DNA from: a virus
Taxonomy: Duplodnaviria > Caudoviricetes
DNA length: 42,881 bases
Reading direction: 5' to 3' (one strand)
IMG/VR virus record: IMGVR_UViG_3300027969_000172
Location: 1 to 42,881 of that record
Shown: piece by piece, positions 13,675 through 34,400 of the stretch
Layout of the letters: each line of letters begins with the position of its first letter
Numbering within the stretch: position 1 is the first letter of the stretch
The notes under the pieces: model-generated
What the model was told of the DNA's origin: nothing
Databases searched by the model: none
Seen by the model: only the letters and a program-made list of their open reading frames with translations
Translations under genes and position numbers: made by a program

Positions 13675-13877
13675 TCACCAAAGAAGATGTAGAAGACTCG
13701 ATCACTTACAAACTAACCGGGGCCCTGATGCTGGCGGCAAGTATTCTGTCTGATGCACAGGAGTTGCTGGCTGTAGGGGACCGGGCCCGGGCCAACGAGC
13801 ATATCAATGACGCCAAGCGCGTGATCTTTATGGTCATGGATAACGAGCTGGACCCCGGCATTCGCAAAGAACTATAA
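13671..13877 (+). CDS. Small hypothetical protein
   Basis: ATGA overlap; SILSDAQELL...A...IN.AK. Confidence 0.65.
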   Translation: MITKEDVEDSITYKLTGALMLAASILSDAQELLAVGDRARANEHINDAKRVIFMVMDNELDPGIRKEL

Positions 13878-14657
13878 AAACCCGCGCAGGGATTCGGCAG
13901 CCAACTGGGTGCCAATCCTCTGCTCGGCATCATTGAAGTCCTCTCCAGCCTCGCCTAACCAATAGAACGAGGCTATTTTTTTGGCTGTGCCCACGCCCAT
14001 TGCATCGTTGTCAGCGATCACCAAAGGGTTCCTTAAACTCTTAGCCACTTCAAGCATATTCCCCGCAGAGAAACACACATGAATCGTATAGCGCTCGCGC
14101 AAATACTTCATGGCCCTACGCACAGACATACCCGTGGCAAACCCCTCACACAGAATATTGCGGCCCTTGTTGTCAATGATCAGACTGGCCCCCTTGGTCT
14201 GCTGCCCTGACAGAAAGCGCTTTGTGCCGTCTTCCTGAATGAGCTGGCAGCCAACCAAATGCTGACCAATCCTCATCGGCAGAACAAGCAGGCCATTCCA
14301 AACCAATCCCTTATCGGGGAAACCCTTGCGAATCAAATAGGGGTGTTGCTGTTTAAGGGCATTGTTCAGGATAAATGCGGCCTTGTCTGCAGCCTTACGC
14401 TGACGCAGCTCATGTTCGCGCTTGGCCTCTTCCCTCTTGGCCGCAGCATGAGGGTCGGGTATAAACGGCTCGCTGGATTTATAAAGTATATGCCGATCAT
14501 GCACAGCGAAGTTAATGATCGCGCCCTTGTGGCCATCAAAGATGTAGGCGCCGTTCTGCTTCCGAGGGTGATCATCAGTCCCAACACGCACCCAGCGATC
14601 CAAGATTAGATCTTTAATCATGAGGCCATGATCCCTTGCGAATTCTTCGAATGTCAT
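13872..14657 (-). CDS. Toprim-domain primase
   Basis: HPYLIRKG, LVLPM, Q.I..DGTKRFL.G, CEGFATG, FSAGN, IADND, DFND; ATGA coupling to helicase. Confidence 0.85.
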   Translation of the reverse strand: MTFEEFARDHGLMIKDLILDRWVRVGTDDHPRKQNGAYIFDGHKGAIINFAVHDRHILYKSSEPFIPDPHAAAKREEAKREHELRQRKAADKAAFILNNALKQQHPYLIRKGFPDKGLVWNGLLVLPMRIGQHLVGCQLIQEDGTKRFLSGQQTKGASLIIDNKGRNILCEGFATGMSVRRAMKYLRERYTIHVCFSAGNMLEVAKSLRNPLVIADNDAMGVGTAKKIASFYWLGEAGEDFNDAEQRIGTQLAAESLRGFL

Positions 14658-16126
14658 TTGTTGGCCTTCGATTTTACCCAAGCAATGTTGCGTGACTTAA
14701 TCCACGCGCTTGTCTTGTACGATATAGGAGCGGGATTTGTATGCAGCCCACGGGGATAGGCGCCATACTTTTCTTTGTACTTAACAGCCGCATAGCCCTC
14801 TTTGTATCCCCTTGCCTTGGCATAAAAGATCAGCTCAGAATAGAACTTTTGATTCTCTGACACCAGCTCGCGCTTGGTCATCTCCAGCTCTGTCAGCTGG
14901 CCGGGGACATTCAGAACTTGCTTTTGTGCTTTCTCAAACCCGCATTCACCGCAAATTCTGTCAGGCCAAACCCATAAAGTCTTACAGGCCGGGCACTTGG
15001 CTTCGGTCTTTTCCTTTTCTGTTGGCTCTTTCTTTGCTGTCTCGGCGCCATTCTGCAGCTCGGTCACGCCCTCATCAAAAAGCTTGTCCCACTCTTTTCT
15101 AAACCGAAGGTAATTACCCGAATGATCTAACCACAAACCATATTCTTTACCATCGTATGGCCGCATGATCCGGCCCATCTGCTGCACATGGCTGCTAAAT
15201 GACTTAGAGAATGGCCTGGCTGACACGCCAATCATTACATCAGGCACATCAAAACCTCTGGTCAGTATGTCTGTGGCAATTAGTCCGTTGATTTTCGTAT
15301 CAGGCCTGCTGAAATCCTCAATTGTCTCGGCTTTGAACTCGTCATCCTCTTTGTAACTGATCGAAACAAAGTTATAACCGCGCTCATTAAACTGGCGCAC
15401 AAGGTCGCGGCCATGCTCAACACCAGAGGCAAATACAACTGTCTTGCGTGGGCCGCCAAACACTTCATTTGTTTTGTTAATCCACTCTTCGACAATGTCA
15501 CCCGTAATCTTCATGCCGCGCTCGGAAACATCATCTGAAGACCATTCGCCTGCAACCTTCTTAGCGCCGGTCATGTCAATTTCTTTTGCGATAAAGATCT
15601 TAAGGGGCGCCAGCCACTTGTCCTCAATCAGTTCACTCGTAGATTTGGCACCCACAACATTGGTATAGGTGTCACCCAAACCATTGGTAAAAGGCGTTGC
15701 CGTGAGGCCGATCACCCTCATGTCAGGGCGATCTTTAACTAACTGAATGATTTGCTTGCGCTGCACATGGCACTCATCAATGATGAGCATAGACACATCA
15801 GGGAATGTGGCCCTGCTTTCTAGCGTCTGCGCGCTGCATACTTGGATCTTTTCATAGGGCCTGTAGCGCCAATGATCCGCCTGCATAACACCGTGATTGA
15901 TGTTGTAGTTACCAAGGCGGGTGCTGGTTTGATTGACCAACACGATGCGGTCTAGCACCATCGCTACATTCTTGAGTTTCTTGGCCTCTTCGAGCATGAT
16001 GGCCATGGCCACCTCTGTTTTGCCAAACCCTGTGGGTGCGTAAAGCAGCTGGTGTTTGTGTCCATCTACAAAGCCTTGAGCAAGCTTCTCCACGACTTCC
16101 GCTTGATGCGGTCTTAAACTAAGCAT
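14654..16126 (-). CDS. Superfamily 2 DExH helicase with Zn finger (RadD/YejH-like)
   Basis: APTGFGKT, IIDECH, GLTATP, LTRGFDVP, QQMGRIMR, CPAC..CGEC. Confidence 0.92.
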   Translation of the reverse strand: MLSLRPHQAEVVEKLAQGFVDGHKHQLLYAPTGFGKTEVAMAIMLEEAKKLKNVAMVLDRIVLVNQTSTRLGNYNINHGVMQADHWRYRPYEKIQVCSAQTLESRATFPDVSMLIIDECHVQRKQIIQLVKDRPDMRVIGLTATPFTNGLGDTYTNVVGAKSTSELIEDKWLAPLKIFIAKEIDMTGAKKVAGEWSSDDVSERGMKITGDIVEEWINKTNEVFGGPRKTVVFASGVEHGRDLVRQFNERGYNFVSISYKEDDEFKAETIEDFSRPDTKINGLIATDILTRGFDVPDVMIGVSARPFSKSFSSHVQQMGRIMRPYDGKEYGLWLDHSGNYLRFRKEWDKLFDEGVTELQNGAETAKKEPTEKEKTEAKCPACKTLWVWPDRICGECGFEKAQKQVLNVPGQLTELEMTKRELVSENQKFYSELIFYAKARGYKEGYAAVKYKEKYGAYPRGLHTNPAPISYKTSAWIKSRNIAWVKSKANK

Positions 16127-16162
16127 TTGATTTCTCCTACCGGGATACCGCCCGGCTTCGGT

Positions 16163-16987
16163 TTATTTAGATTCTAGTGCCTTTTCTGCCCTCTCAACGC
16201 GCTTCTTCCAATAAGTTAATTGCTTGATCATCTCAGCATTTTTGTTTTGGAATTCATTGCGCGATTGGGTCATGGTACGCAGCTTAAACTCAAGGTCTTT
16301 GACCTCGGCCCGCAGCGACTCAATGGTTTCTTGAACTTCTGTCCTGGCCTTCTCGGACACAGGCAATGTTCGGATGGCCAGCATATCTTTGAGCTTTGTA
16401 TTCTCTTCTGATAATGCTGTGTGCTCGATAGCCAGCTCATGCATCTTATCTTCTTCGGTGTATTCGGGCTCGGGCTCGGGCGCTGCCTTGGGGCCACGGC
16501 CAGTTATATTAACGCGCTGACCATTCTTGTCTACCCGCGAAGCAGCTTCCAATCCCATGGCCTTGCGAACACGACCAACTGTCATTGACGATACATCGCA
16601 GATCAGGGCAATCTCCACATCGGTCTTCTCACCCAACTCAATGTCTTCCAAGGCCATTTGAACCACATAGCGGCGTTCTTCGGGGGTGCGTGGCTTACCG
16701 TGCTTACCATTGGCCTTCAGACAAGCCAAGAACGCATCGCGCTTGGTGCCTTGATTGACTGCGGCCTCAATGTCCAAGAACCCGGCGCGCTTATGTGCGT
16801 GGAATCTGTGGAAGCCATCGCTGGGCCAGTAAGATTTGCCGTCAAACCATAAGTCAATTGGCGGAAACTTATCTTTGCCCTCAAGCAATACTTCTGTGTA
16901 GTGCTGGACCAAGGGCTCGTCAATCTCTTTGCGGGGCTGGGTGCCGCCATCAAGGCGAATCTTTTGTAGCTTAATTCTTTCGGTCAT
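16163..16987 (-). CDS. ParB/Srx N-terminal domain protein with HTH and coiled coil
   Basis: GTQPR...FPPI..WFDG....DGFHR..A, ANGKHG, TD.EIA.ICDVS..TV.RVRK; AAGGA RBS before 16987. Confidence 0.8.
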   Translation of the reverse strand: MTERIKLQKIRLDGGTQPRKEIDEPLVQHYTEVLLEGKDKFPPIDLWFDGKSYWPSDGFHRFHAHKRAGFLDIEAAVNQGTKRDAFLACLKANGKHGKPRTPEERRYVVQMALEDIELGEKTDVEIALICDVSSMTVGRVRKAMGLEAASRVDKNGQRVNITGRGPKAAPEPEPEYTEEDKMHELAIEHTALSEENTKLKDMLAIRTLPVSEKARTEVQETIESLRAEVKDLEFKLRTMTQSRNEFQNKNAEMIKQLTYWKKRVERAEKALESK

Positions 16988-17175
16988 TGTTTTCCTTTTG
17001 TTGATGCTCTTTTTGAGGCTCTGTTTGCCCAGCAGGCGGCGCAGTGCCATTTTGTGTGGTTAAGTTGGATGCCGCCCTCTGGCGGCTTCATTTCGTTGCA
17101 GTTATTGCACTCCTTGTGTTGATGTACCGGCTGCTTACCGCCAATTGTTAATTGTTGTTTTGCAAATCCATTCAC
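16984..17175 (-). CDS. Small Zn-ribbon protein
   Basis: CNNC...W.CAAC; overlaps flanking genes by 4 nt. Confidence 0.6.
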   Translation of the reverse strand: MNGFAKQQLTIGGKQPVHQHKECNNCNEMKPPEGGIQLNHTKWHCAACWANRASKRASTKGKQ

Positions 17176-19683: not shown

Positions 19684-19862
19684 GATTCCTCCTGTAGTGA
19701 AATGGGAATATAGAAGCAGGCCTTGCTCTTGCTGTCCTGCACATTAACAACGCCGTTACCGCGCGTCTGCTCGGGGTGATCTACCCAGCGCTTACAGTTC
19801 TCACACTTGGAGCTGTAAACAACTGGCTTACATCTTGTGTATTCAGGAAGCAGAGGAGTCAT
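19680..19862 (-). CDS. Small Cys-containing protein
   Basis: RC...CENCKRW...C; AAGGAG RBS. Confidence 0.65.
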   Translation of the reverse strand: MTPLLPEYTRCKPVVYSSKCENCKRWVDHPEQTRGNGVVNVQDSKSKACFYIPISLQEES

Positions 19863-20091
19863 TTCTCTCCTTCAGCATGGCGTCTGCCATAGAGTAGGCG
19901 TCCATTGAAAGGCCATCCATCCAACCATTTGGATCAGTTAAATCCAAATCTTTTCCTAAGAAATTAGTTATAAACGATTGCATGGCCTTGGCAGCAAAGT
20001 AATCCCTTAGATCCATACCGCCTTCACCGCCTACAGCTGTGACACGCGCTTCGTTATTAACACTGATAGTGTGGGTAGGAAAAGCTTTCAT
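19843..20091 (-). CDS. GMxLRDYFAAKAMQ family phage protein
   Basis: MKAFP...GMDLRDYFAAKAMQ...AYSMADAMLKER; start 20091 by ATGA coupling. Confidence 0.8.
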   Translation of the reverse strand: MKAFPTHTISVNNEARVTAVGGEGGMDLRDYFAAKAMQSFITNFLGKDLDLTDPNGWMDGLSMDAYSMADAMLKERNDSSAS

Positions 20092-20252
20092 ACACGACTC
20101 CAGAACAAAAGAATTCCGGCAATAAGTACCACAAAGAAGATGACAACCACCGGCCAAAATGGTTGCTTTCCATACGGCCCACTGATGGGCTCACTATCGC
20201 AGTTAAACGCTTCGTGCATCGTGCGTGGATAACGCTTTGTTGTTTCATTCAT
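20088..20252 (-). CDS. Small membrane protein, first gene of leftward operon (not in ORF track)
   Basis: AGGAGG RBS; MNETTKRYPRTMHEAF...FWPVVVIFFVVLIAGILLFWSRV, 54 aa with one TM helix. Confidence 0.75.
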   Translation of the reverse strand: MNETTKRYPRTMHEAFNCDSEPISGPYGKQPFWPVVVIFFVVLIAGILLFWSRV

Positions 20253-20271
20253 ACTTGCCTCCTGTGTTAAT

Positions 20272-20301
20272 AATATAACTCATGAATAAATCACAAGTCA
20301 A
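20272..20301 (-). promoter_or_regulatory. Promoter of leftward replication operon
   Basis: TTGACT-18bp-TATATT; spacer contains ATTCATG half-site. Confidence 0.6.
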
Positions 20302-20314
20302 CTGTTATGTTACC

Positions 20315-20826
20315 AACTAAAAGCCCTCTTACCCGTTGACCCTCCCTCCCCCCCCAGAGGGTAGGTGTAGGACAGTCAACGACTCTTTATCAAGGAGCTT
20401 TGCCCAGTTAGTGAGCTACCGGCCAGCCAAGCCGCCCTCCCCTGAGATCCCGATAAGGTCAGTTTTCACCGGCCCCAACGATCAACTCCCAGCGTACTAG
20501 GGTATTTGTCTTTCGACATCCTTGTTTATTCCGTTCGATTACTCTACTTGGAGGTGCGGGTCACACCGAGGTTCTGTGTTCTTTGAGTTCAGCCCATACA
20601 GGCCATTAGCTAACGCGCTCTGACGGCTGCGTTGCGGGTGAGACTGGGACTGCTCACATGAAGCAGTGTTTTCAAAACATTTCGTCCTCTCAGGGGCAAC
20701 GGCGCTAACCCGTTACACAATCCCAGTCTCAAAAACAAAAAAGCCACTTACAACTGCCCCGTTGCGGTTCCCCTAGACGGGGCGAGGCAGATGTAAATGG
20801 CTTTCAAGGTTGACCGCAACGACAAC
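20315..20826 (-). ncRNA. Candidate ~510-nt structured non-coding transcript (attenuator, multi-branch domain, G-rich hairpin)
   Basis: Own promoter, no convincing ORF, several long complementary stems (see findings). Confidence 0.55.
20732..20821 (-). terminator. Terminator/antiterminator (attenuator) leader
   Basis: Long stem 20783-20804 / 20740-20761 followed by U-tract; 5' CGUUGCGGU (20813-20821) is complementary to ACCGCAACG (20760-20768). Confidence 0.65.
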
Positions 20827-20832
20827 AGCTCG

Positions 20833-20861
20833 TTTATATCAAAGATATTTGCGTTGTGCAA
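20833..20861 (-). promoter_or_regulatory. Sigma70-type promoter driving the non-coding region
   Basis: TTGCAC-17bp-TATAAA with TGn extension. Confidence 0.65.
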
Positions 20862-20884
20862 TACCCTATGAAAAAAAAGTTTCC

Positions 20885-20905
20885 CATATTAACACTGTTA
20901 ATATG
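20885..20905. promoter_or_regulatory. Palindrome TTAACA-N-TGTTAA, longest copy
   Basis: CATATTAACACTGTTAATATG, 21 bp with perfect 10-bp arms. Confidence 0.75.
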
Positions 20906-20979
20906 AAAAAAGCCCCCGAGTGGTTAGTTCGGGGGCAAAGCAAACCCAACAAAGGAGAGTGGCAACTGCAAGTTACCGG
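20906..20979 (-). ncRNA. Candidate ~75-nt sRNA with anti-Shine-Dalgarno seed; its 3' hairpin is also the ruvC terminator
   Basis: Promoter TTGCAG-16bp-TAGAAT (20985-21012); hairpin GGUAACU-UGC-AGUUGCC; linker ACUCUCCUUUGUUGGG; terminator GCCCCCGA..UCGGGGGC-U6. Confidence 0.55.
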
Positions 20980-20992
20980 AATTTATTCTACA

Positions 20993-21454
20993 TCAATCTC
21001 CGTGAACTGCAATAAGAGCTGCATCAGCATACGCTTGGCCGGCACCCTTTTTATCCAACTCCCTCCAGAAGGGCCACATCTGTATGGCCAATGTCCTTGA
21101 CGCATCTTTGTCCTGACCAGTAAGACCCGCGCGCTTCTTCCATTGACTGGGTGTCACCATCGTCACAGGTATCTCAAACGCACCAAGCACACCTTGGATC
21201 ACGCCAGCTGAGTGACCGAAGGAGAACATCGAAGCCACGCCTTGGCCGGGCATACTGCCCACCAGCTCAACATACGCATGGAGCTTTTTATTCAATAGCC
21301 AGTACGGCCTGATCTTGGCAGCCAAAGCAGAAGCATTCACCCGATTGGCCGAGCCCGTCTTCATTGTTGGCATCCGGTGCCACTCAATAGGAGAGTTTGG
21401 TTCCAAAAAAACTATTGCACCAGACAGGCCGGGGTCTATTCCAATTTTGATCAT
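20993..21454 (-). CDS. ruvC: RuvC-like Holliday junction resolvase
   Basis: IGIDPGLSGA, YVE.V..MPGQGVASMFSFG, P.QWKK, ADAALIA. Confidence 0.88.
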   Translation of the reverse strand: MIKIGIDPGLSGAIVFLEPNSPIEWHRMPTMKTGSANRVNASALAAKIRPYWLLNKKLHAYVELVGSMPGQGVASMFSFGHSAGVIQGVLGAFEIPVTMVTPSQWKKRAGLTGQDKDASRTLAIQMWPFWRELDKKGAGQAYADAALIAVHGD

Positions 21455-21472
21455 ATTTTTCTTTCAAAGGTA

Positions 21473-21502
21473 TTGCAAGACATGAATATATGTGGGTACA
21501 AT
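21473..21502 (+). promoter_or_regulatory. Promoter of recombination operon
   Basis: TTGCAA-18bp-TACAAT; spacer contains ACATGAAT. Confidence 0.6.
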
Positions 21503-21532: not shown

Positions 21533-21865
21533 ATGACAAGGCGAGAGTTTTCTTTTCAGTTTGAAGACACCACGATTTGCTTCGTGCAGCTGTACCACGA
21601 CTGTTGGATTTGCAGTTTGCCCAACCTTCCAGCCGAAAGACTTAGGAAGAGACTTTTAGGTTCCGACCTTTCTGTTGACGAGCTTGACCTCTCACTAAGG
21701 TTAAGAAATTTTCTAAAGTCAGAAAACCTGACAACCATTTATGACGTAATCCAACGAACCGAAAACGAAATATTGAAGTGCCCAAATATTGGACGAGGCT
21801 CACTCAAGGATTTGAAGGCCGCCTTGGCCGCATTCGGATTTGAACTTAGGAAGTTACGCATATGA
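21533..21865 (+). CDS. Stand-alone RNA polymerase alpha C-terminal-domain homologue
   Basis: VDELDLSLRLRNFLKSENLTTIYDVIQRTENEILKCPNIGRGSLKDLKAAL aligns by eye with RpoA CTD [58 protein letters not shown] RBS. Confidence 0.85.
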   Translation: MTRREFSFQFEDTTICFVQLYHDCWICSLPNLPAERLRKRLLGSDLSVDELDLSLRLRNFLKSENLTTIYDVIQRTENEILKCPNIGRGSLKDLKAALAAFGFELRKLRI

Positions 21866-25202: not shown

Positions 25203-25422
25203 TGGAACAGTGGTAGCCGCCCACAGTAACCAGCTGCGGGATGGAAAAGGCCGGGGCCTGAAGGCGCATGACTACCGAATTGCATCCTTATGTTATCGGT
25301 GCCACATGGAGCTGGATCAGGGGGCTAAGATGGATAAGGCCCAGCGTGTTGAAATGTGGGAGGATGCACATCGCAAGACGCTGGGCCTGTTCTTTGAGCA
25401 GGGTATTATTGGCCCCGTCTAA
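25120..25422 (+). CDS. DUF1364/YbcO-like His-Cys putative nuclease
   Basis: LL.AAR..PCQ.CG....TVVAAHSN...GKG.G.KAHD...A.LCY.CH..LD; start may be 25135. Confidence 0.8.
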   Translation: MTVNQMYRNEKLLKAARLLPCQHCGVSDGTVVAAHSNQLRDGKGRGLKAHDYRIASLCYRCHMELDQGAKMDKAQRVEMWEDAHRKTLGLFFEQGIIGPV

Positions 25423-28400
25423 CCTGATTGTTGAAGTCAGTCATCTTCTTCAAGATTTCATCTTCCTTGCGCTTAACAGCCTCCCTTGGGGCATCCTTCT
25501 CAATCAGCGCTCTCTTTTCTTTATTCAGCTTGACGATCTGATTCTCAACATTGTTAGCCCGCTGCCACAACCTGGCCTCTGGGTTAGCCTTAACGTACTC
25601 AGTTGGGCTAACCTTGTCTTTACGCAGGCCCTTGATCTCATGCTCATGCTTGGCCATCTCTTTCACGTTCTCATAGAACCTTGATCGAGTAGCAGCTGGT
25701 GACTCAGCTTCTCCGTAGAAGCGGCCAACTATCGGCAGCTTGTAGGCCGGCACCTCTTCTTGAGTGACCGCCTTAGACTTAGCAAACTCTCCAACCTTCA
25801 TGATCTCCCGGCCAACACCGCCAGTGACTTGACCGATGAAGTAATCAATCTGATCGGCGGTAGGACTGAAGAATCCCTTGGTATGCTGGGTGCCAGCTGG
25901 AGAGGTTGCCCAGTTGATTGCCTCTGCAAGCTTCTTACTGAAGAGGCTGGAGTTCTCACGCGAACGCTCGTATCCGGGCGTAGGTGCGTTGCCCTTGTCT
26001 TCCCTGTAGATTGGCCGACCAAAGGCATCACGGTTACTGTAAATGGCTGCAAACGGATCGAGGATCGTAGGCATAGCCATTAACAAAGGATTACCAGCTC
26101 CACCCAATGGGTTGAACGCATCAAACACCAAAGACACCGCGCTCATAACCTTATCGCCCGGGCCTTTGCGGCTTCTGATCATGCCGGTTTCAATTAACAA
26201 TGTTTCCATGGCAAGGCGGCCAATACCGGGGAACATATTAAAGCCCAGTGGCATTGGAATAGACAAATACTTCTTGTCCGAGAATGGAATTGGAATGATG
26301 AAGTTCTTGTCTTTGACAAACTCTGGTGGCTCATCATCGTCAAACCCAGCCATGGCCAAGACAATAGCCTGCATAGATCCAAGGAACATACCGCCAAAGA
26401 TAATCTTCTTACCCATAGGCCCGCGCAGTGTTTCCACCATGCGCGCACTACCCTGAATGGCAGCGTTAAAGAACGCATACAGGGAGGAGATAAGACCAGT
26501 CCTAGCACCCTTGCGGTTGAAGTTAACAGTCAGATTCTTAGCAATGCTGGCTGCCTTGTCTTCGCTTAGACCACTCTCCACGGCTACCTTAAATGCAGAC
26601 AAACGCACGGCATTCTCAATGGCATCGTTGTAGTCTGACAGCCAGTCAAATACCGCATCAACAGACTTCTTGACGTTGCCACGGTTAAGGCGCTTCAGTT
26701 CTTGCTCAACAACATTACCCTTGCGAGCTGTCTCTGCAAATTGATTCTGGTAACCAGTCTGACCGCCGGCCAGTTGGAAACGCTCAAACCAATCTTGCAT
26801 TTCAGCCATAGCTTCGGTAGTCGCACCCTTACCGCGCAGATCACGATAGATCGCGCGCAAGGCTGGCAGCACGTTGGCCCGCACTTGCTTTTCCTTGCCA
26901 GCAATCTCTGTCGTTGACAAGTTAAGAGAAGCAGCGCCAAGGTCACGTAAGAAGTTAACACCACCAAACACGATGTTGTACTGGGTATTAACAGACGCAA
27001 ACCAGCGAGTGACCATACCGACTGTGCCAATTACATCGCCCAGTCTTTCGGTATCAAGGTTCTTAATTGACTCAACCATACGCAATGCACGGGGGTCATT
27101 GGGGTTGAAGAAGATAAAGCGGTCTTCGCCGTTAATACGGACAGGAAAGACGTTGGGGCTGTTACGCAGCAGGGGGTTAACCTGATACTTAACCTGACCA
27201 GTCTTCTTATCAAACATCGGCTGGCGCGGCTCTTGGATGATGTTCTGAGCATCTTCAGGCTTGAGGCCCAGAGAGATCAGCTCGGCTTCCAACTTATCTT
27301 TGTCTTTGATGGCGTCAGGATTGATAGCCAACCAGAAGCCAGGATTTGGATGCTTGATGGCCATGCCATACAAAGCGCGGCCAACACGGGCCTGCTCAGA
27401 CCTACGCAAGGCGCGCTCACGCTGCATAGCAATATTGGCAAAGATGTCAATGACTGGCTTGTCAGAACCAACACGGCGCTTAGATGCAGAACCACGGGTA
27501 GCAAAGCCACCCATGACGCCACGGCCAGTGTGTACAAAGTCAAGGTTATCGCGCTGCAGCGGAACGTAGTTCTTGTATGTCTTATTCCACTCGTCAATTG
27601 TGTCCTGAGTCTCAAGGCCGTTGGCCACCAAGACGCGCTGAGTCTCTTTGACAATCTTGTCAACCTTGGCTGCAAGAGCCGTGAGATCTTTGCGTTTTTC
27701 TGGCGTCAACTCCGCCATGTATTTATCGGCAGCTTCATCTGAAACGCTGGAGCCAGCCTCTGGGAAGCCAGTCGGATTGATCTTAGCAATGTATGCGTTG
27801 GCTTCTTTAGCGTGGCGGTTGAGCAAGAACGTTTCAAGCTCATCCAGCGTCACGTTTTTCTCTTGCATTTCCTCAAGCACCGGGCGCATCTCGTCATTAA
27901 GAAAATCGCCAGTACGCTTGGCCAGACGGCCATGGTAGTTCTCTTCCTTCATGTAGGCGTCAAACTGCTCATTAAGCTTTTTGCCGGTGCTATTGATTGA
28001 TTGAATCAAACGCTTGGTGTCGATGAGTTTGTCGCCATACTTGTAGATCACATCGTCCATGAACGACATCTCTGGGATTTCCATGTCCGGCTGGGGCGCT
28101 TCACCACCTTGGTAGTTGCGCCGCTCAATGCTTTGGTAGTCGCCTACACCTAGCATCTCATCGGTAACAAAATTACCATCAGACTTAGCCAGACTATCCA
28201 ATGCGCGGATGATGGAGACGTCAGACTTCAAGCCAAACAATGATTTGATCGTTTGACCCAGCTCACGCAACCAGTTCTTAAGCTTGGAAAGTGTTCCACC
28301 TTTGACGGCCTCAAAGCGACCTTCAACAATGCGTGAACCGTTAACAGCCCAGAACTCTGATGGGTTAAAGAACTGGTACATATCCAAGGGCACGGCGCCC

Positions 28401-31400
28401 TGCAACAAAAGCATTTCTGCAAGCTTTACGCTGGTATTCCCGCGAGCCATGTCTTCCAAGGCCATGCGCGCATTAGAGTACGCCACGCCGGCACCCTCTG
28501 GGACGTTCACCATGGCGTGTTTATTGTCGCCAAAATTTGCATCCAACACGGCTTCAAAGTAAAGCTTCTGGACTGGGTCTTTAGTAGCTTTGGCCGCCTT
28601 TGTCAGCTGAGTCAACCAAGCTTTACGAATGGCTTGCTGAATCTTAAGCGGCATCATGCGCTCAAGATGGTGCAAAATTTCGTGTACGGTTGTAAGGTCT
28701 GAGCCACCATTCTTGAATAACGTGATGATGCGTGAGAGGTTGTTATAGAACCCGCCCGCACCTTCTCTTTTGTTGGCTTTAATGCTGATACCAAGGTCAT
28801 CGACCAAAGCCTCGTTCTGCTGCATAAACCAATTAGCCAAGTCGTATGCTTCCCGCGTCAACTCACCTCTACGAACAGCTGCCGACAGTTTTTCTTGGAT
28901 GTGCAAGTACCCGCGCTGGCGTGGTTTTGCGGGATTAAGCAAGTCATTTTCATAGTCTTCACGGATGGCCGCATCGGTCATTAGGACGTACATCTCGTCA
29001 GACATTTTGCCGGCCTTGCGCTGGCGGTTGTACGTTTTAAGCTTACGAATCAAAGACGGGGAACGCTTCTTCTCATCTTCCGCCATGTCACCGGCCATCT
29101 GATCAGTAAGCTTGACCAAATCATCACCAAGACTCTTGTTAATGTTGCCAGACTCATCAAACGTACCACGGTTACCAGTGGCTGACTTGATTTGCTCTGG
29201 CTCTAAAGCAATCCATACATCCTGATCTTTAAACTCAGCGCTCTTGGGGTCAGCCTTAATATGGATGCCATCTTTGCCAGCTTCTTTTAAGAACTTACGC
29301 AGGGCTTCAACTTCTTTTGCGCCAATCTTACGGCCATCGTCCACGCCGTTTTCCATCATGCGGGCGCGTCTTAACATTGTTCCAAATGTTGTGGTGTATG
29401 GGTTCTTGATAGACAAGTACACGGGATAGACCGCAGCGCCTTCACCAGTGCCAGAGTACATCTGGGCACCACCTTCGCCGGGGTTGGTGCTGAAGAAGCT
29501 GCCAACAGTATCAATAGATGGCTTACGGAACTGAGTGGTAAACATCCGGTCAAACGCCATGATGTCCCCCATACCCTTCACACCTTCGGTATCTGGACGA
29601 ACGATGGTGCCGTGGTAGACAACCAATGGATTGCCGTCAGCATCTACAACCTTGCTGTCGCCAAAGAACTTCTTAAACGCTGGCGTCCCAGTCTGCTTCT
29701 CAAGACTGAAGAATCGTTCTTCCCTGCCAGCTTGTTTACGCTCGGCAACCGTCTTAGGAGCAGGCACCTGTTGCTCTGTGACGGTGGTCTTGGTCTTAGC
29801 CGGAAACATAGCCGCAGTGGCAGCTTGATTGTCTGGTAGCACAAAGATCATGCCGCCGTTGAGCGCGTCAATGTTTGGCAGAATAGACTTTAGGAATGTT
29901 TCATGTGCTGTATTGATGCAGCCGTAGCTAATACGCTTATCCTCTGCCCCGGGCGTAGCCAAACGCTCAAGCCGTTTTTCTTGTGGGTTTCCAAGGTATG
30001 CGGCATGAACAGCAATTATTCCGTTGCCGGCAGTCTCTGACAAAGCCAATGTCACGCCGCCCGCATATTCAGCATCAGGCATAGCCGCCAACGTAAACTT
30101 TCCCGCTGGAGTTATCTTGGGCCCGCCTACTAAAGACGAAACATCGCTTTCAACGTCACCAATGTCTTTACCGTACAGGGCGGTGTCTTGAACCAGCATT
30201 GACCCGTCAGCAAAGAAAACGTGCATCATGCCGTTTGGCTTGTCTGCAATGATGAATCCTTTGCCAGAAGCCTTGGCTGTGGGCGCCATTGACTCGTAAA
30301 CCGACTGCGCCAACGTAGACATCTTGGCTTTTGCGTTTGCAGGGACTTCAGCTTTGACTTGCGTAGTAACAGTAGTTTTGTAAGTTTTTGGTAGGTTAAA
30401 TTCAAAGTTGTTGGTCAGCGCCATTGGGTTAAGAACAACCGCAGCAGACATTACGCCAGCAGCTATTTGCCGGATGATTGCGCGAATCCTTCCGTTAACC
30501 GCCTTGGCGCCCTCGTTAATGAACGCAATGACATCTTTACGCAGGCTATCTAAAAACTCGGTGCTATTGCGCTTGGCGCCGTACTGGCTTTCTAGGGATT
30601 TAGTCTGGTCTTCGCTTAACTTGGAGGTTTGATCAGTCAGAATCTTTTGCTGCCTCTCCTCGCCAATCTCAGTAAATTCACCTTCCATGGTGTAGGGCTC
30701 AAAGCCAACCTGGCCGGCAATCTGTGGCTCTTTGGCGGGCAGCACTTCAGTTTCAGGCTGCCTGACAATAACCCTCTCACTTACGCCGCTGTCTGTCTCT
30801 TGGAACTTGAAGTCAAACTTCTTGTAAAGATTAACCAGCTGGTCAAAGTCAAGGCCAACATCTTTTTGCTTGAGGTTAACGATGGGCACGGGCTCGCCAT
30901 ACAGGGTTATTCCGTACTGGTCAGCAACCTTGGTAAGGTCTTTAAGAACCTGAGTGCCTTTGCCTTTGCCGCGATCCTTGGGATCAACAGCAAGCATTTC
31001 AAGGGTTAGCTCATTAGGGTTACCCATGCCGTACTGAACACGGCCCTTCCACTCAAACAATACTTGGTTAGGGCTAACAGCTATGCGCGCGCCATCCTTC
31101 TCAAATGTGCGGTGTTGTTTGCCGCCCTTGTCTGTGTAGGTGCGTGGATCATTTAGGGCCAACACTGTGTAGCCTGTATTAACAAGGCCATACGCAGCTG
31201 GGTAACTCAGGGTGTTGCCTTCAGGGGTTTCCACTTCAAAAGACGGCTCTTCGGCTGGCTCTTCAACCGCCTGCTCTTGCGCCCGTTCCTCAAGTAATTC
31301 GTCAACACGCTCATCAATAGCGTTGTCTCTGGCGTCATCTAGCAGGCCGCTTAGAGTATCCAGAACTTCGCTTGCATCTTGCTCTCTATCGCTAAGACCT

Positions 31401-34400
31401 TCTCGGACATCTTCTACATCATCAAGGACGCCATCACGCTCTAGCTTTTTAATGAAGCTTCGGATCTGAGCCTTGGTTTCAATGTCGCCGTTTTCAATCT
31501 TAGCAATAGCCTGACCAATTGGGCCTTCATCAATTTCAGCTTCTGCCTTGTTTCGTATGGCTTCTTCTGCCGCCTCTTCCGCCGCTTCGGTTTCAGCCTC
31601 TGTTGGCGCGGCTTCTGCAGCAGCTCTTGCAGCCCTACCTTCGGCTGCAGTCAACTCGCCTTGCAGCTTGGATATTTCTGAAACAAGAGACTTACGTTTT
31701 TCTTTGTTGAGCTCTAAATCAAGCTGGTCTTCCAAGTCTTGGAGCTCGTCTTGAATCTCTTCAACGCTTCTTTGTTTTACTACTGGCTTTTCTACCTGCT
31801 GAATTGCAGGCTTGCCTTCAAGCTCACGCAGGCGCTTGTCGATCTCAGCCATGCGAGCTTCTTGCTCTGGCGTTTCTTCTAGGCCAGCCTTGATGATCTG
31901 GAGCATCAAAGTCTTCTGCTCTTTTTTCAGGTCAGCAATCTCTTGCTTGTTGTCCTTGGGCTTCTCAACTACGGCAACGTTCTTTGGCATATTTTCAAGG
32001 ACAGCAATTGCCCCATCAATATCGCCTTTTTTGTAAAGGGCACCAATTGCTTTGCGTACTTCAGAATTTGTTGTATCAAGGTAGGCAAATGCTTCTGCCC
32101 CAATTTCTGGAAACTCTTCACCCAATTCAACCGGGTTAAAAGTATTATCTTCAGCAAAGATGTCCTTCTGGCCACGGGCTGCAGCAACATCAGCCGCACG
32201 GTCACTGCCGGTCAGGGTGAACTCAGCAGCCTGTTCATCTGCCTTGGCCTTGGCTTCTGCCTGCTTGGCTAGGCGCTCGTTCTCCTTGCTTAGACGATCA
32301 ATCTCGTCTTGCTTAGACTTCAGCTCATCTTTTGTGGGGGCTGTGAGCTCAAACGCTTCTCTTTCACTTGTTTCAGCAGCGCGATCCTTGTTGCTGGGCT
32401 CAGTGATCTCAGCTTTTTGATCAGCTTCTCTTTGTTCATCTGCTGCAATTTGGAGTTCACGATTCTGTTCCTCAATGGTTAAGTATTCTTTAACAAGATC
32501 TTCCGCATCCTTGACGGAATCAAAAATCATTTCAATTTCTGTTTTGGCGTCAAATGGCACATAGTCTTGACTGCCAACCGCATCTTTAATTAACTGAGCT
32601 GATTCAGCTGCATCAAAGTTATTTGCGTCATGGCGTTTGTCTGGTGGCAAGAATGCGTCCAATGCCCCATCATCAACCAAGTCAACAATGTAGGCGCCAT
32701 TGCCATTACCCTGAGTGATTTGTAACCTACGCTGACCAAGATTTGGTTTCTTACCAAAAATCTCGCGAACCTCTTCTGGGTTTAATGAGCCAGTAAGGGC
32801 GCTCCACAAGCTTCCAGGCTTGGCGCGCATTTTATTAACAGTCTTAACGGACTGATCAACCCTTGCTTTTGCTTCAATAAATTCTTTAGGTTGCGTGGCT
32901 TTACCGCCCATGACGCCAAACGATTCATCGGGCTCAAGCTCAGTAGGCTCTTCTTGGCGAGCCGATTTCTTGCGCTTATCCAAGCCTTCTAGTGTCTGGC
33001 TCTCTGGTGAGAATGTCACATACTCTTTGTACTTAGTGCCGCTCTTTAAAGCATCTCCCATGCGAGTAAGCGCGTCATAGCCGGCTTCGTTATAAATGGC
33101 TCCCAATACATCCGTGTAACCTTGAGGCAAAGCATCAGAAAGCTTGCGCGGCTCAAATCCACCGCGATTTAAATTGGAGTGAATCTTTTGAAGATCTTCC
33201 GTAACCGCCTCATTGGTTGCTTCATCGTAATAAGGAACACCATACGCCTGCAATTCTTCGGCAGTTGTTGGAATTGCGCGCTTCAGATTAACAACATCTT
33301 CTTTGGTTAATTTGTCCAAATCAAGAACACGGCTGGCTTTAAGCTCACCCTGCAACACAGTGCCGTTTGTATTGCGCGAAGCAAACTCTTTGGCCGCCTG
33401 CTCGGACTCTGTTGTGTAGTAGCCAGCACCAAGATTGCCATCATCAGCGCTTTTAAACTCTTCCCCAACTTTGTGGCCACGGAATACTTTTGTCGCCTCT
33501 GTTTTGGCTGGCGGTATTGTTTCAACTGGCTTCTCTGTCACAGGGGCTGGTTTGGGAGCGGTCTTAGGTTTATTAGCCTCAATAAACTTATCAACAACTT
33601 GATCAACCTGATCCATGCTCATGGACTTAGGAGCCGGCATTGGTTCACCGCGCTTCATAGCCTCAAGAATTCCAACACTCTGAGAACTCTTGTACTGCTC
33701 TTCAGCTTGCTTGACAGTGTCCATCAAACGCTGACCCAGAGGTGTCGTGCTTCCACCCTTGATCAGACCGTTCTCTGTCATCCAAGTGAGTGTTTCCTTT
33801 GGCAGTTTGCCCGCATTGCCTTGCCAACCATCAATGATGGCGTTGTAGATCTCAGGCGTACTTGGGCGAGCTTTTGCCTCTGGTTCTTTAGGCATAACCT
33901 CTTCAACCAGTTTTGTGCTGGCTGGTTGCTCTAAAGGCGCTTCAACGGCAGCAGCTTGAACAACAGGCGCCTCCGCTGGCCTCTCAACCTTAACTTCAGG
34001 CTCTTTTTCTTGGGGGTAATTAACACTGTTAATTAACTCTTGCAACATGGCCTGCGTATCGCGGGACTCAGATTCAGGAGCCTGTATGGTTTCCGCTGGG
34101 CCAGCAGGAGGTGCGGGCGGCATAGGAGCTTGAGCAGCCGGTGCAGCTGGAGGTGCGGGCGGCCTACCTTCTGGCGTCAGGAATCCCCTTTGACGGGCCA
34201 TGAGTTCAGCCAAGCCGCCTTCTGGCTGGACATACTTCTCACGCTCTGGAGCTTTGGCTTCACCTTCACTCAGAGCGCCCTTTACCGTACCGGGGCCAGC
34301 ACCACCAAGGAAGCCAAGAATAAAGTTACCCGCAGAATCTTCGCCCAACTCTTTGCTTGGAATGACGTTCTTTAGGGTTACATCAGAAGCCAAGCCTTCG

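What the first reader, a model, noticed from the sequence alone, without database searches (positions are those of the whole stretch)
20315..20861. Promoter-driven ~510-nt non-coding transcript ending in a G-tract: candidate RNA-primed origin or large ncRNA
Seen: in an otherwise gene-dense genome, a good promoter (TTGCAC-17-TATAAA) fires leftward into ~500 nt with no credible ORF but successive stems (attenuator, multi-branch domain, UGUC-GAAA-GACA tetraloop hairpin at ~20507-20518, CGUUGAC/GUCAACG hairpin 20334-20381 containing G8AG3AG3). Established: ColE1 RNA II (~555 nt) and mitochondrial CSB II use G-rich tracts to form R-loop primers. Inference: an attenuator-controlled preprimer RNA upstream of the helicase/primase operon, or an undescribed structured RNA class. 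The G-tract may simply be a hairpin arm.
Basis: partly seen in the sequence, partly recalled or inferred. Interest (0 to 1): 0.85.

Follow-up and report, generated by a model that had tools for sequence, protein, structure and literature searches.

The report
Phage RNA replacing a replication initiator
This gene-free stretch of a lake phage is a conserved gene for an intricately folded RNA of an uncatalogued family, placed behind a hairpin likely to act as an on/off switch, and it likely starts DNA copying, because in related phages it sits where the protein that normally does that job is missing or cut in half.

Summary
Confirmed and extended. The 500 nt are four modules: a promoter with a ~95-nt terminator hairpin, an optional ~90-nt inserted motif, a ~300-nt core RNA, and a G-rich tail. 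The core shows 60 compensatory changes on a tree against 2.5 expected, with kink-turn-, loop-E- and GNRA-type motifs. No Rfam match.

It occurs in hundreds of freshwater phage contigs, at one locus per record. A 5' leader segment covaries with two downstream partners across 40 sequence types, as in P4/IsrK-style attenuators.

For replication: of 45 records with an RNA in this slot, 0 encode PolA and 4 a full initiator, against 9 of 11 with one or the other among records lacking it. Sister phages swap RNA for initiator, and many keep only the initiator's C-terminal half beside it.

Against: no transcript, R-loop or replicon was shown; four phages have both; one relative lacks the tail; the G-quadruplex is not universal, and its last tract likely pairs with an internal loop.

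Best reading: RNA-based replication initiator (0.45). The scan noted a look-alike RNA before on other DNA (e1-9832218, function unknown).

The parts
20905..20936 (-). Terminator-like hairpin with U run ending the upstream RuvC-like gene; would insulate the RNA gene
   Evidence: sequence; RuvC-like gene 20993-21454; function inferred
20880..20910 (.). AT-rich inverted repeat upstream of the promoter, possible protein-binding site
   Evidence: arms 20880-20894/20896-20910; present in 10 of 27 RuvC-linked loci
20833..20861 (-). Predicted sigma-70 promoter, TTGCAC-17-TATAAA with extended -10 TG
   Evidence: promoter-like pair before 42 of 94 homologous leaders vs 74 of 2018 controls
20812..20821 (-). 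Segment X: variable 5' specificity segment of the leader
   Evidence: covaries with X' and X''
20732..20804 (-). Module A: long terminator hairpin and U run; X' (20760-20770) lies in its loop; several exchangeable leader types exist
   Evidence: folding z -5.65
20639..20731 (-). Module B: optional inserted small structured motif with two conserved loops, widespread on its own in phage intergenic regions
   Evidence: about 450 stretches estimated; beside the core in 8 of 117 by a strict pattern; inner and outer stems covary in 115 instances; no Rfam match
20630..20637 (-). Segment X'': second partner of X, directly before the core
   Evidence: cognate -8.6 vs permuted -5.4 +/- 0.36 kcal/mol over 40 X types
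20579..20629 (-). Core 5' domain shared by subfamilies I, II and III
   Evidence: alignment A2, model R1; one locus in each of 46 matched records
20553..20570 (-). Hairpin whose loop (20557-20563) is complementary to the 3' tail
   Evidence: stem covaries in 9 events; loop and tail change together in L596
20530..20552 (-). Hairpin with loop-E/sarcin-ricin-type AGUA/GAA motif capped by a GNRA tetraloop
   Evidence: AGUA 37 of 38, GAA 31 of 38, GNRA 37 of 38; motif names recalled
20383..20524 (-). Multi-branch domain: closing stem 20519-20524/20391-20396, tetraloop hairpin 20507-20518, kink-turn-type arm 20442-20492, hairpins 20420-20434 and 20402-20416
   Evidence: tandem GA/GA in 30 of 32 rows that have the arm
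20328..20381 (-). Module D: variable hairpin with invariant G side; GGNRGGNRGG at 20340-20349 and terminal CGGGU at 20331-20335
20272..20301 (-). Second predicted promoter, for the downstream operon that ends in ParB-like, SF2 helicase and Toprim primase genes (13872-17050)

Best explanation
The stretch is a single-copy gene for a conserved, covarying ~300-nt folded RNA behind a terminator-bearing leader, and this RNA likely serves as the phage's replication initiator in place of an origin-binding protein. Shown by sequence comparison: the fold, the three-way leader pairing, the conserved 3' tail, and the exchange with protein initiator genes in related phages. Inferred step 1: most transcripts stop at the leader terminator, and pairing of X with X' or X'' (in cis, or in trans by the short or processed RNA) sets read-through in a phage-specific way. 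Inferred step 2: the read-through RNA folds, and its 3' G-rich or CACC segment stays hybridised to the template, with the internal loop holding the displaced strand (or, alternatively, the RNA tail itself). Inferred step 3: the opened DNA is primed by the RNA and a host polymerase, or is handed to the phage helicase/primase or to the retained C-terminal half of the initiator.
For: Structure: 60 compensatory events vs 2.5 +/- 1.5, max 12 in 2000 null draws; 89% of cells paired and 42 of 60 pairs with both-side change, slid controls 33-47%. One locus in 46 of 46 matched records. Proteins beside many type II RNAs match only positions ~179-252 of 288- and 383-position replication-initiator profiles; such half-genes lie beside 12 of 93 and 25 of 69 distinct elements in two overlapping sets. 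Gene order cro - RNA - half initiator - small gene - RusA-like in G024 vs cro-like - hairpin leader - full DUF1376 initiator - ... - the same small gene family (47% identical, G052 vs L102) in G052. Sister contrasts: G013 (RNA, no initiator found) vs G082 (DUF1376, no RNA), 14-17 shared proteins; G056/G059 vs G052, 17-20 shared. Among 56 records: PolA 0 of 45 slot-positive vs 6 of 11; PolA or full initiator 4 of 45 vs 9 of 11. Integrase 1 of 56. No iteron-like repeats or DnaA boxes in window 19801-21500. GGNRGGNRGG in 62 of 62 type I cores vs 93 of 36,572 windows. An internal loop complementary to the 3' end occurs in type I (one double compensatory change, L596) and type II (28 pairs, -8.6 vs -6.9 +/- 0.34). 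Precedent: RNA-based prophage origins replace repA in mycobacteriophages (PMC7157519).
Against: No transcript, RNA end, R-loop or autonomous replication was shown; the RNA-run contigs cannot be told from DNA, and several bridge the G tail and the downstream promoter. Four slot-positive records also carry a full-length initiator (G014, G020, G025, G078), and in G014/G078 the RNA lies between scaffold and capsid genes. L004 lacks the tail and second promoter. The strict G3x4 motif is missing in 3 of 71 and 2 of 13 type I cores and in all type II cores. No counter-transcript promoter (0 of 56) and no ParA (0 of 56), so neither the ColE1 nor the parABS pattern is met. No plasmid in PLSDB matches types I-III. 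The records are not independent: about half of the positives belong to one ~60-kb phage group, 2 of the 11 negatives are chance pattern hits, and 2 are incomplete, so the Fisher p of 4e-6 overstates the case. The window's phage encodes its own primase.
Confidence: 0.45

Rival explanations
1. The RNA is a free, trans-acting ornate RNA (GOLLD/ROOL-like scaffold, protein sponge or anti-defence decoy), made under attenuator control, and its place near replication genes only reflects early expression.
For: Own promoter and a separate downstream promoter; several genomic settings; unrelated RNAs fill the same slot; tertiary motifs and a self-contained loop-tail pseudoknot; co-occurrence with full initiators in 4 of 45.
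Against: Does not explain the half initiators, the sister swaps or the absence of PolA; no intrinsic terminator was called after the tail; no tRNA in the window; no GOLLD or ROOL match.
Confidence: 0.22
2. The RNA acts in cis on RNA polymerase or ribosomes: a put-like processive antiterminator or a long regulatory leader for the operon that follows.
For: It always lies co-oriented before long operons, including after cro, where HK022 putR lies about 270 nt from PR (PMC9378689), and before capsid genes; type II ends in a ribosome-binding site and ATG next to the loop-paired segment; RNA-run contigs bridge the tail.
Against: put RNAs are ~70 nt with two stems, the core is ~300 nt; the downstream operon has its own promoter in 39 of 58 type I cases; in many type II cases no gene follows the terminal ATG; loss of the initiator's N-terminal half is unexplained.
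Confidence: 0.18
3. The whole unit is a P4-CI-type RNA immunity system: the processed downstream RNA carries X'' and blocks X in incoming related phages, and the core is only its stabilising body.
For: Covarying X/X'/X'' with 40 specificity types; P4 CI pairs with seqA and seqC, and IsrK acts on its own read-through transcript (PMC4825925).
Against: CI-type RNAs are under 100 nt (IsrK 77 nt; CI size recalled); the core and tail are conserved independently of X; integrase in 1 of 56 records, so a lysogenic state is not evident; no Rfam C4 match.
Confidence: 0.1
4. The structure acts as single-stranded DNA (a primase or helicase loading signal), not as RNA.
For: Replication context; covariation alone does not tell RNA from ssDNA (PMC5737381 makes this point for plasmid motifs).
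Against: Frequent G-U pairs, interchanging GNRA loops, tandem GA and loop-E-type motifs, plus a dedicated promoter and terminator.
Confidence: 0.05

Closest known systems
RNA-based origins of non-RepA cluster A mycobacteriophage prophages (Wetzel et al. 2020, PMC7157519)
   Same: A 400-500-nt non-coding transcribed region takes the place of an initiator gene in non-integrating phages, and close relatives exchange the two.
   Different: No sequence similarity to the Alma origin; no ParA here; those RNAs run opposite to parA and were not described with an attenuator or a covarying fold in the passages read; here the C-terminal half of an O/DnaD-type initiator is often kept.
ColE1 RNA II / RNA I and the Vibrio MRB plasmid origins (PMC3035462)
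   Same: Promoter-driven ~500-nt structured transcript, no initiator protein, reliance on host polymerase, short variable pairing segments that could define compatibility groups.
   Different: No counter-transcript promoter found; control is predicted to be by a same-strand terminator; no PLSDB match; occurs in tailed phages; priming not shown.
Phage P4 seqA/CI/seqC and Gifsy-1 IsrK (PMC4825925); P1 C4 antisense RNA (Rfam RF01695)
   Same: Short terminated leader plus read-through transcript, with leader segments pairing to a downstream partner.
   Different: No Rfam C4 match; the regulated product is a large RNA, not an antirepressor or kil gene; in the window X pairs with two partners rather than CI pairing with two targets.
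GOLLD, ROOL, OLE ornate RNAs (PMC12286853)
   Same: Large, covarying, pseudoknotted phage RNAs with tertiary motifs and no shown function.
   Different: Smaller (~300 vs 600-800+ nt), no Rfam match, no tRNA island in the window, tied to an attenuator and to replication slots.
ARRPOF, GEBRO, PAGEV plasmid motifs (Weinberg et al. 2017, PMC5737381)
   Same: 223-349-nt structured motifs linked to rep-independent replication regions.
   Different: Rfam scans gave no match; those are plasmid-borne in other taxa.
Mitochondrial CSB II hybrid G-quadruplex R-loop (PMC5333043)
   Same: Split G run on the non-template strand at the 3' end of a promoter-driven transcript.
   Different: The strict four-tract form is not universal here, and one tract has an RNA-internal partner.

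Membership tests
Any Rfam 15 family | Match to a covariance model | tested here: not met
   Window at gathering score 0 hits, region best E 0.15; 40 homologous or module-B loci gave only tRNAs, one Betaproteobacteria-1 RNA elsewhere and two weak miRNA hits
ColE1/MRB RNA replicons | Promoter-driven long structured RNA without initiator protein | tested here: inconclusive
   Promoter-like signal and structure met; no full initiator found in 41 of 45 but present in 4; the window record is 68% complete
ColE1/MRB RNA replicons | Counter-transcribed antisense RNA I over the 5' end | tested here: not met
   No + strand promoter in the element; 0 of 56 type I loci by pattern; consensus scans can miss promoters
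ColE1/MRB RNA replicons | Sequence similarity to known plasmid origins | tested here: not met
   No PLSDB match for types I, II, III
ColE1/MRB RNA replicons | RNase H-processed primer extended by Pol I | not testable with these tools
   Needs bench work; no phage PolA in 45 of 45 is only compatible with it
Non-RepA mycobacteriophage RNA origins | No integrase, no RepA | tested here: met
   Tyrosine integrase 1 of 56; serine integrases and plasmid RepA families were not searched
Non-RepA mycobacteriophage RNA origins | Adjacent parABS cassette | tested here: not met
   ParA 0 of 56; ParB-like alone in 26 of 45
Non-RepA mycobacteriophage RNA origins | Homology to the Alma ori | tested here: not met
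Non-RepA mycobacteriophage RNA origins | Sufficient for autonomous replication | not testable with these tools
   bench test
P4 CI / IsrK / C4 attenuators | Leader terminator with complementary downstream segment | tested here: met
P4 CI / IsrK / C4 attenuators | Match to C4 model RF01695 | tested here: not met
   c4-a1b1 has no Rfam number in the table seen, so it was not testable
P4 CI / IsrK / C4 attenuators | Short RNA acts in trans on the nascent transcript | not testable with these tools
   bench test
HK022 put antiterminator | ~70 nt, two stems, binds the beta-prime zinc finger | tested here: inconclusive
   Size and fold of the core differ; a put-like role of a sub-domain was not tested
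CSB II-type G-quadruplex R-loop signal | Conserved multi-tract G run on the non-template strand at the RNA 3' end | tested here: inconclusive
   68 of 71 and 11 of 13 type I, 0 type II; GGNRGGNRGG 62 of 62

The most novel reading that the evidence does not exclude
A widespread group of freshwater tailed phages has replaced the DNA-binding half of the lambda-O-type initiator and its iterons with interchangeable ornate RNAs that open the origin themselves: an internal loop grips the displaced DNA strand and locks an R-loop, while a same-strand attenuator with dozens of swapped specificity codes sets copy number and compatibility.
Probability: 0.3. Interest if true: 0.92.

Novelty: new variant of a known kind. 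Interest (0 to 1): 0.76.

Why it matters
Many small freshwater tailed phages encode neither a DNA polymerase nor a recognisable initiator, and how they start replication is open. This gives a defined, single-copy, ~500-bp candidate cassette with natural compensatory variants that make the test direct. If it is an origin, it extends RNA-initiated replication from ColE1/MRB plasmids and mycobacteriophage prophages to a third, unrelated lineage with a different control logic, and suggests that an RNA can take over half of a protein initiator. If it is not, it is still a new abundant family of ornate phage RNAs with at least three subtypes, plus a second widespread small motif, none in Rfam.

Tried and rejected
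Decayed CDS: rejected. Rfam families, including C4, GOLLD, ROOL and ribozymes: no match. Resemblances seen by eye to hammerhead, twister, pistol, group I and group II elements did not hold up against recalled consensus sequences and were dropped. An exact 22-mer from the leader found nothing in the viral collection because the leader is the variable part. A first, coarse X'' test over whole leaders was weak (13 of 94 in the best 5%, median rank 0.26); the focused test used the 73 of 94 rows with a recognisable 5' start. GenBank phages: one match only, MW202484.1, where a 'hypothetical protein' is annotated over the RNA; none for type III or for the unrelated slot RNA. GTDB scan: 14 of 16 exact matches were chance; 2 were real. 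RNA runs: eight were listed or laid as contigs (six RNA); small shares, no strand, no ends, so they say nothing on expression. No small circular contig among 120 metagenome loci. 'Pure G-quadruplex' reading of the tail: weakened by L596, L607, L110 and L316. 'Strict replacement of initiator' reading: weakened by four records with both. One pattern hit for the unrelated slot RNA in G083 was a chance match in a coding region. Strand-skew analysis was not attempted because coding-strand bias dominates. In alignment A1, positions 7-21 were fixed by the search pattern, so their invariance is not evidence; four of 42 rows were left out (L004 deleted, L316 diverged, L019 and L244 cut short by my pattern).

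Full report
Setting. The window is a linear virus record, 68% complete by its own estimate, with head, portal, terminase, ParB-like, SF2 helicase, Toprim primase, RuvC-like, exonuclease and Erf-like genes. The three runs that hold over half of the stretch's sampled words are freshwater metagenomes; the best may be the source sample. The finding lies on the minus strand between the RuvC-like gene and a row of small ORFs that leads to the helicase and primase. The host is probably a betaproteobacterium: the only two real matches among 16 in GTDB genomes are a Betaproteobacteria MAG and a Georgfuchsia MAG. This is weak evidence.

Observation. The region is not a decayed gene. No Rfam family matches the window or 40 related loci in the element. 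A core pattern is found in 24 of 27 loci fetched through the neighbouring RuvC-like protein; exact patterns gave estimates of about 250 and 120 stretches in IMG/VR, the latter with chance hits, and about 180 in metagenomes.

Anatomy. Relatives show four modules. A is a promoter and a ~95-nt terminator hairpin, of several exchangeable types. B is an optional ~90-nt insert that also occurs alone, about 450 stretches estimated, with covarying inner and outer stems (0.92 paired vs 0.58; -21.4 vs -9.6 kcal/mol, 115 instances). C is the core: a ~50-nt 5' domain shared by at least three subfamilies, then a subfamily-specific body. D is the 3' tail. A second promoter follows in 39 of 58 type I loci, so the operon does not depend on this transcript for basal expression.

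The core is a real RNA fold. For the window's subfamily (type I), 38 sequences under 93% identity were aligned (38 of 42 rows, from 71 distinct sequences). A structure drawn from the alignment has 60 compensatory events on a tree against 2.5 +/- 1.5 for re-paired columns, 89% of cells paired, and 42 of 60 pairs with changes on both sides; RNAalifold independently recovers 34 pairs, 23 with both-side changes. The structure was derived from these sequences, so the slid control is favourable by construction. AGUA/GAA with a GNRA cap and a three-base bulge with tandem GA pairs (30 of 32) match the loop-E and kink-turn patterns as I recall them. These argue for RNA over single-stranded DNA.

The leader. 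Segment X (20812-20821) is complementary to X' in the terminator loop and to X'' just before the core. Across 73 rows cognate X:X' and X:X'' duplexes beat all permutations, and over 40 distinct X types X:X'' averages -8.6 against -5.4 +/- 0.36 kcal/mol. A coarser test was weaker, and some rows are mismatched mosaics. This is the logic described for P4 seqA/CI/seqC and IsrK (PMC4825925, passages). How the pairings set termination is inferred, not shown.

The tail. A strict four-tract motif is in 68 of 71 type I sequences and 5 of 2452 control windows, but in none of the type II sequences, and in 11 of 13 type I cores picked by the 5' domain. What all 62 type I cores picked by an internal anchor keep is GGNRGGNRGG (L004 and L316 are not caught by that anchor). 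In L596 the hairpin loop and the terminal five bases change together at two positions and stay complementary: one event, but direct. Type II has the same topology with other letters, an internal GGUG loop covarying with a terminal CACC (28 pairs). The partner could be the RNA tail (a pseudoknot) or the displaced DNA strand, which has the same sequence; comparison cannot tell these apart. Type III ends in a G4-N-A-G5-7 run. Hybrid quadruplexes need fewer tracts (PMC11536079, start of abstract in the listing), so a quadruplex role is not excluded.

Link to replication. Model R1 finds one locus in each of 46 of 50 long records; one has a local duplication. It also matched 7 of 37 comparison records. 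Reading the non-matching records showed that six carry the family with a variant 5' domain and three carry unrelated non-coding sequence in a promoter-attenuator slot (partly classed by eye). This gives 45 slot-positive and 11 negative records among 56. PolA: 0 of 45 vs 6 of 11. Full-length initiator: 4 of 45 vs 3 of 11; three further positives have short N-terminal-only frames that I did not follow up. Together 4 of 45 vs 9 of 11, Fisher p 4e-6, but the records are related and the negatives are a convenience set. More telling are the contrasts: G013 has the RNA where its relative G082 has a DUF1376 initiator, and G056/G059 differ from G052 in the same way. The initiator genes of G052, G060 and G082 themselves follow a cro-like gene, a promoter and a hairpin leader (by eye). 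In G019, G024, G027 and many contigs, the gene beside the RNA is only the C-terminal half of an initiator. That the missing half binds the origin is recalled knowledge of O/DnaD-type proteins.

Results against. G014, G020, G025 and G078 have both RNA and initiator; G014 and G078 swap two unrelated RNAs between scaffold and capsid genes. L004 lacks the tail. There is no ParA, no counter-transcript promoter, no plasmid match, and no expression evidence.

Comparison with known systems. It works, by inference, most like the RNA-based origins of non-RepA mycobacteriophage prophages (PMC7157519: abstract, passages and Discussion read) and ColE1/MRB (PMC3035462, passages), but fails membership of both. 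Other papers seen as passages: PMC2864571, PMC5333043, PMC5737381, PMC9378689, PMC12286853. For PMC10690425 I read the abstract and the second part of Results; three supplementary files were searched without a hit, three could not be searched and three were too large, so pieces of this element may be among its 10,006 unnamed candidates. I found no description of this family in nine searches of the open library; subscription journals are not covered.

Earlier scan notes. e1-9832218 reports a 365-nt look-alike RNA on other DNA with function unknown; it agrees on the RNA class and gave the GOLLD/ROOL lead. e1-5684341 proposes, for an unrelated jumbo-phage RNA, priming by gripping its own DNA; my step 2 is the same idea, and that note is not evidence for it.

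Verdict. A real, conserved, uncatalogued structured RNA gene with a covarying attenuator: about 0.95. RNA-based replication initiator: 0.45, ahead of trans-acting ornate RNA (0.22), cis antiterminator or leader (0.18), immunity RNA (0.10) and ssDNA signal (0.05). New variant of a known kind; interest 0.76.

Noticed in passing
window 20639-20731; L322-L442: Module B is its own widespread uncatalogued motif: a long variable stem enclosing two hairpins whose conserved loops could kiss; often directly after a promoter and before a gene, sometimes twice per locus.
   Followed up: partly
L475:1200-1430 (G075); L456:13000-13500 minus (G078): A second, unrelated ~250-nt non-coding element fills the same promoter-attenuator slot and also ends in CACC followed by a short G run; no GenBank phage match, not scanned against Rfam.
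   Followed up: partly
L486:185-570 (G083); L458:19640-19840 minus (G014): A third unrelated non-coding element follows the leader in G083, and a ~190-nt hairpin insert of another kind lies between leader and core in G014.
   Followed up: no
window 21533-21865 (+): 110-aa protein with an RNA polymerase alpha C-terminal domain match (PF03118, E 1e-14), first gene of the rightward operon; absent at this place in some relatives.
   Followed up: no
window 20880-20910: AT-rich inverted repeat just upstream of the promoter, in 10 of 27 RuvC-linked loci; possible operator or ParB-like binding site.
   Followed up: partly
window 20905-20964 (-): The 3' region of the RuvC-like transcript has an anti-Shine-Dalgarno-like stretch before its terminator and a weak match to the Betaproteobacteria toxic small RNA (E 0.15, below threshold).
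   Followed up: no
window 13872-17050 (-): ParB-like gene without ParA directly before SF2 helicase and Toprim primase; the same ParB-like family is in 26 of 45 slot-positive records, and follows the RNA directly in L099 and L142.
   Followed up: partly
L481:3546-3660 minus; L469:10720-10820; L521:17090-17190: Full DUF1376 initiator genes are preceded by a promoter and a hairpin whose loop is complementary to sequence near the ribosome-binding site, a likely RNA switch of the same style.
   Followed up: no
L106/L547, L188: Tandem duplication of the core 5' domain.
   Followed up: no
L072:3912-4271 (MW202484.1): A GenBank 'hypothetical protein' is annotated across the leader and RNA and is probably a false gene call.
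   Followed up: partly
L337:339-455 (-): A Betaproteobacteria-1 RNA (RF02932, 83 bits) lies in a phage contig next to a module B motif and a leader.
   Followed up: no
window 25406-35512 (-): 3368-aa protein matching only unknown-function phage families.
   Followed up: no
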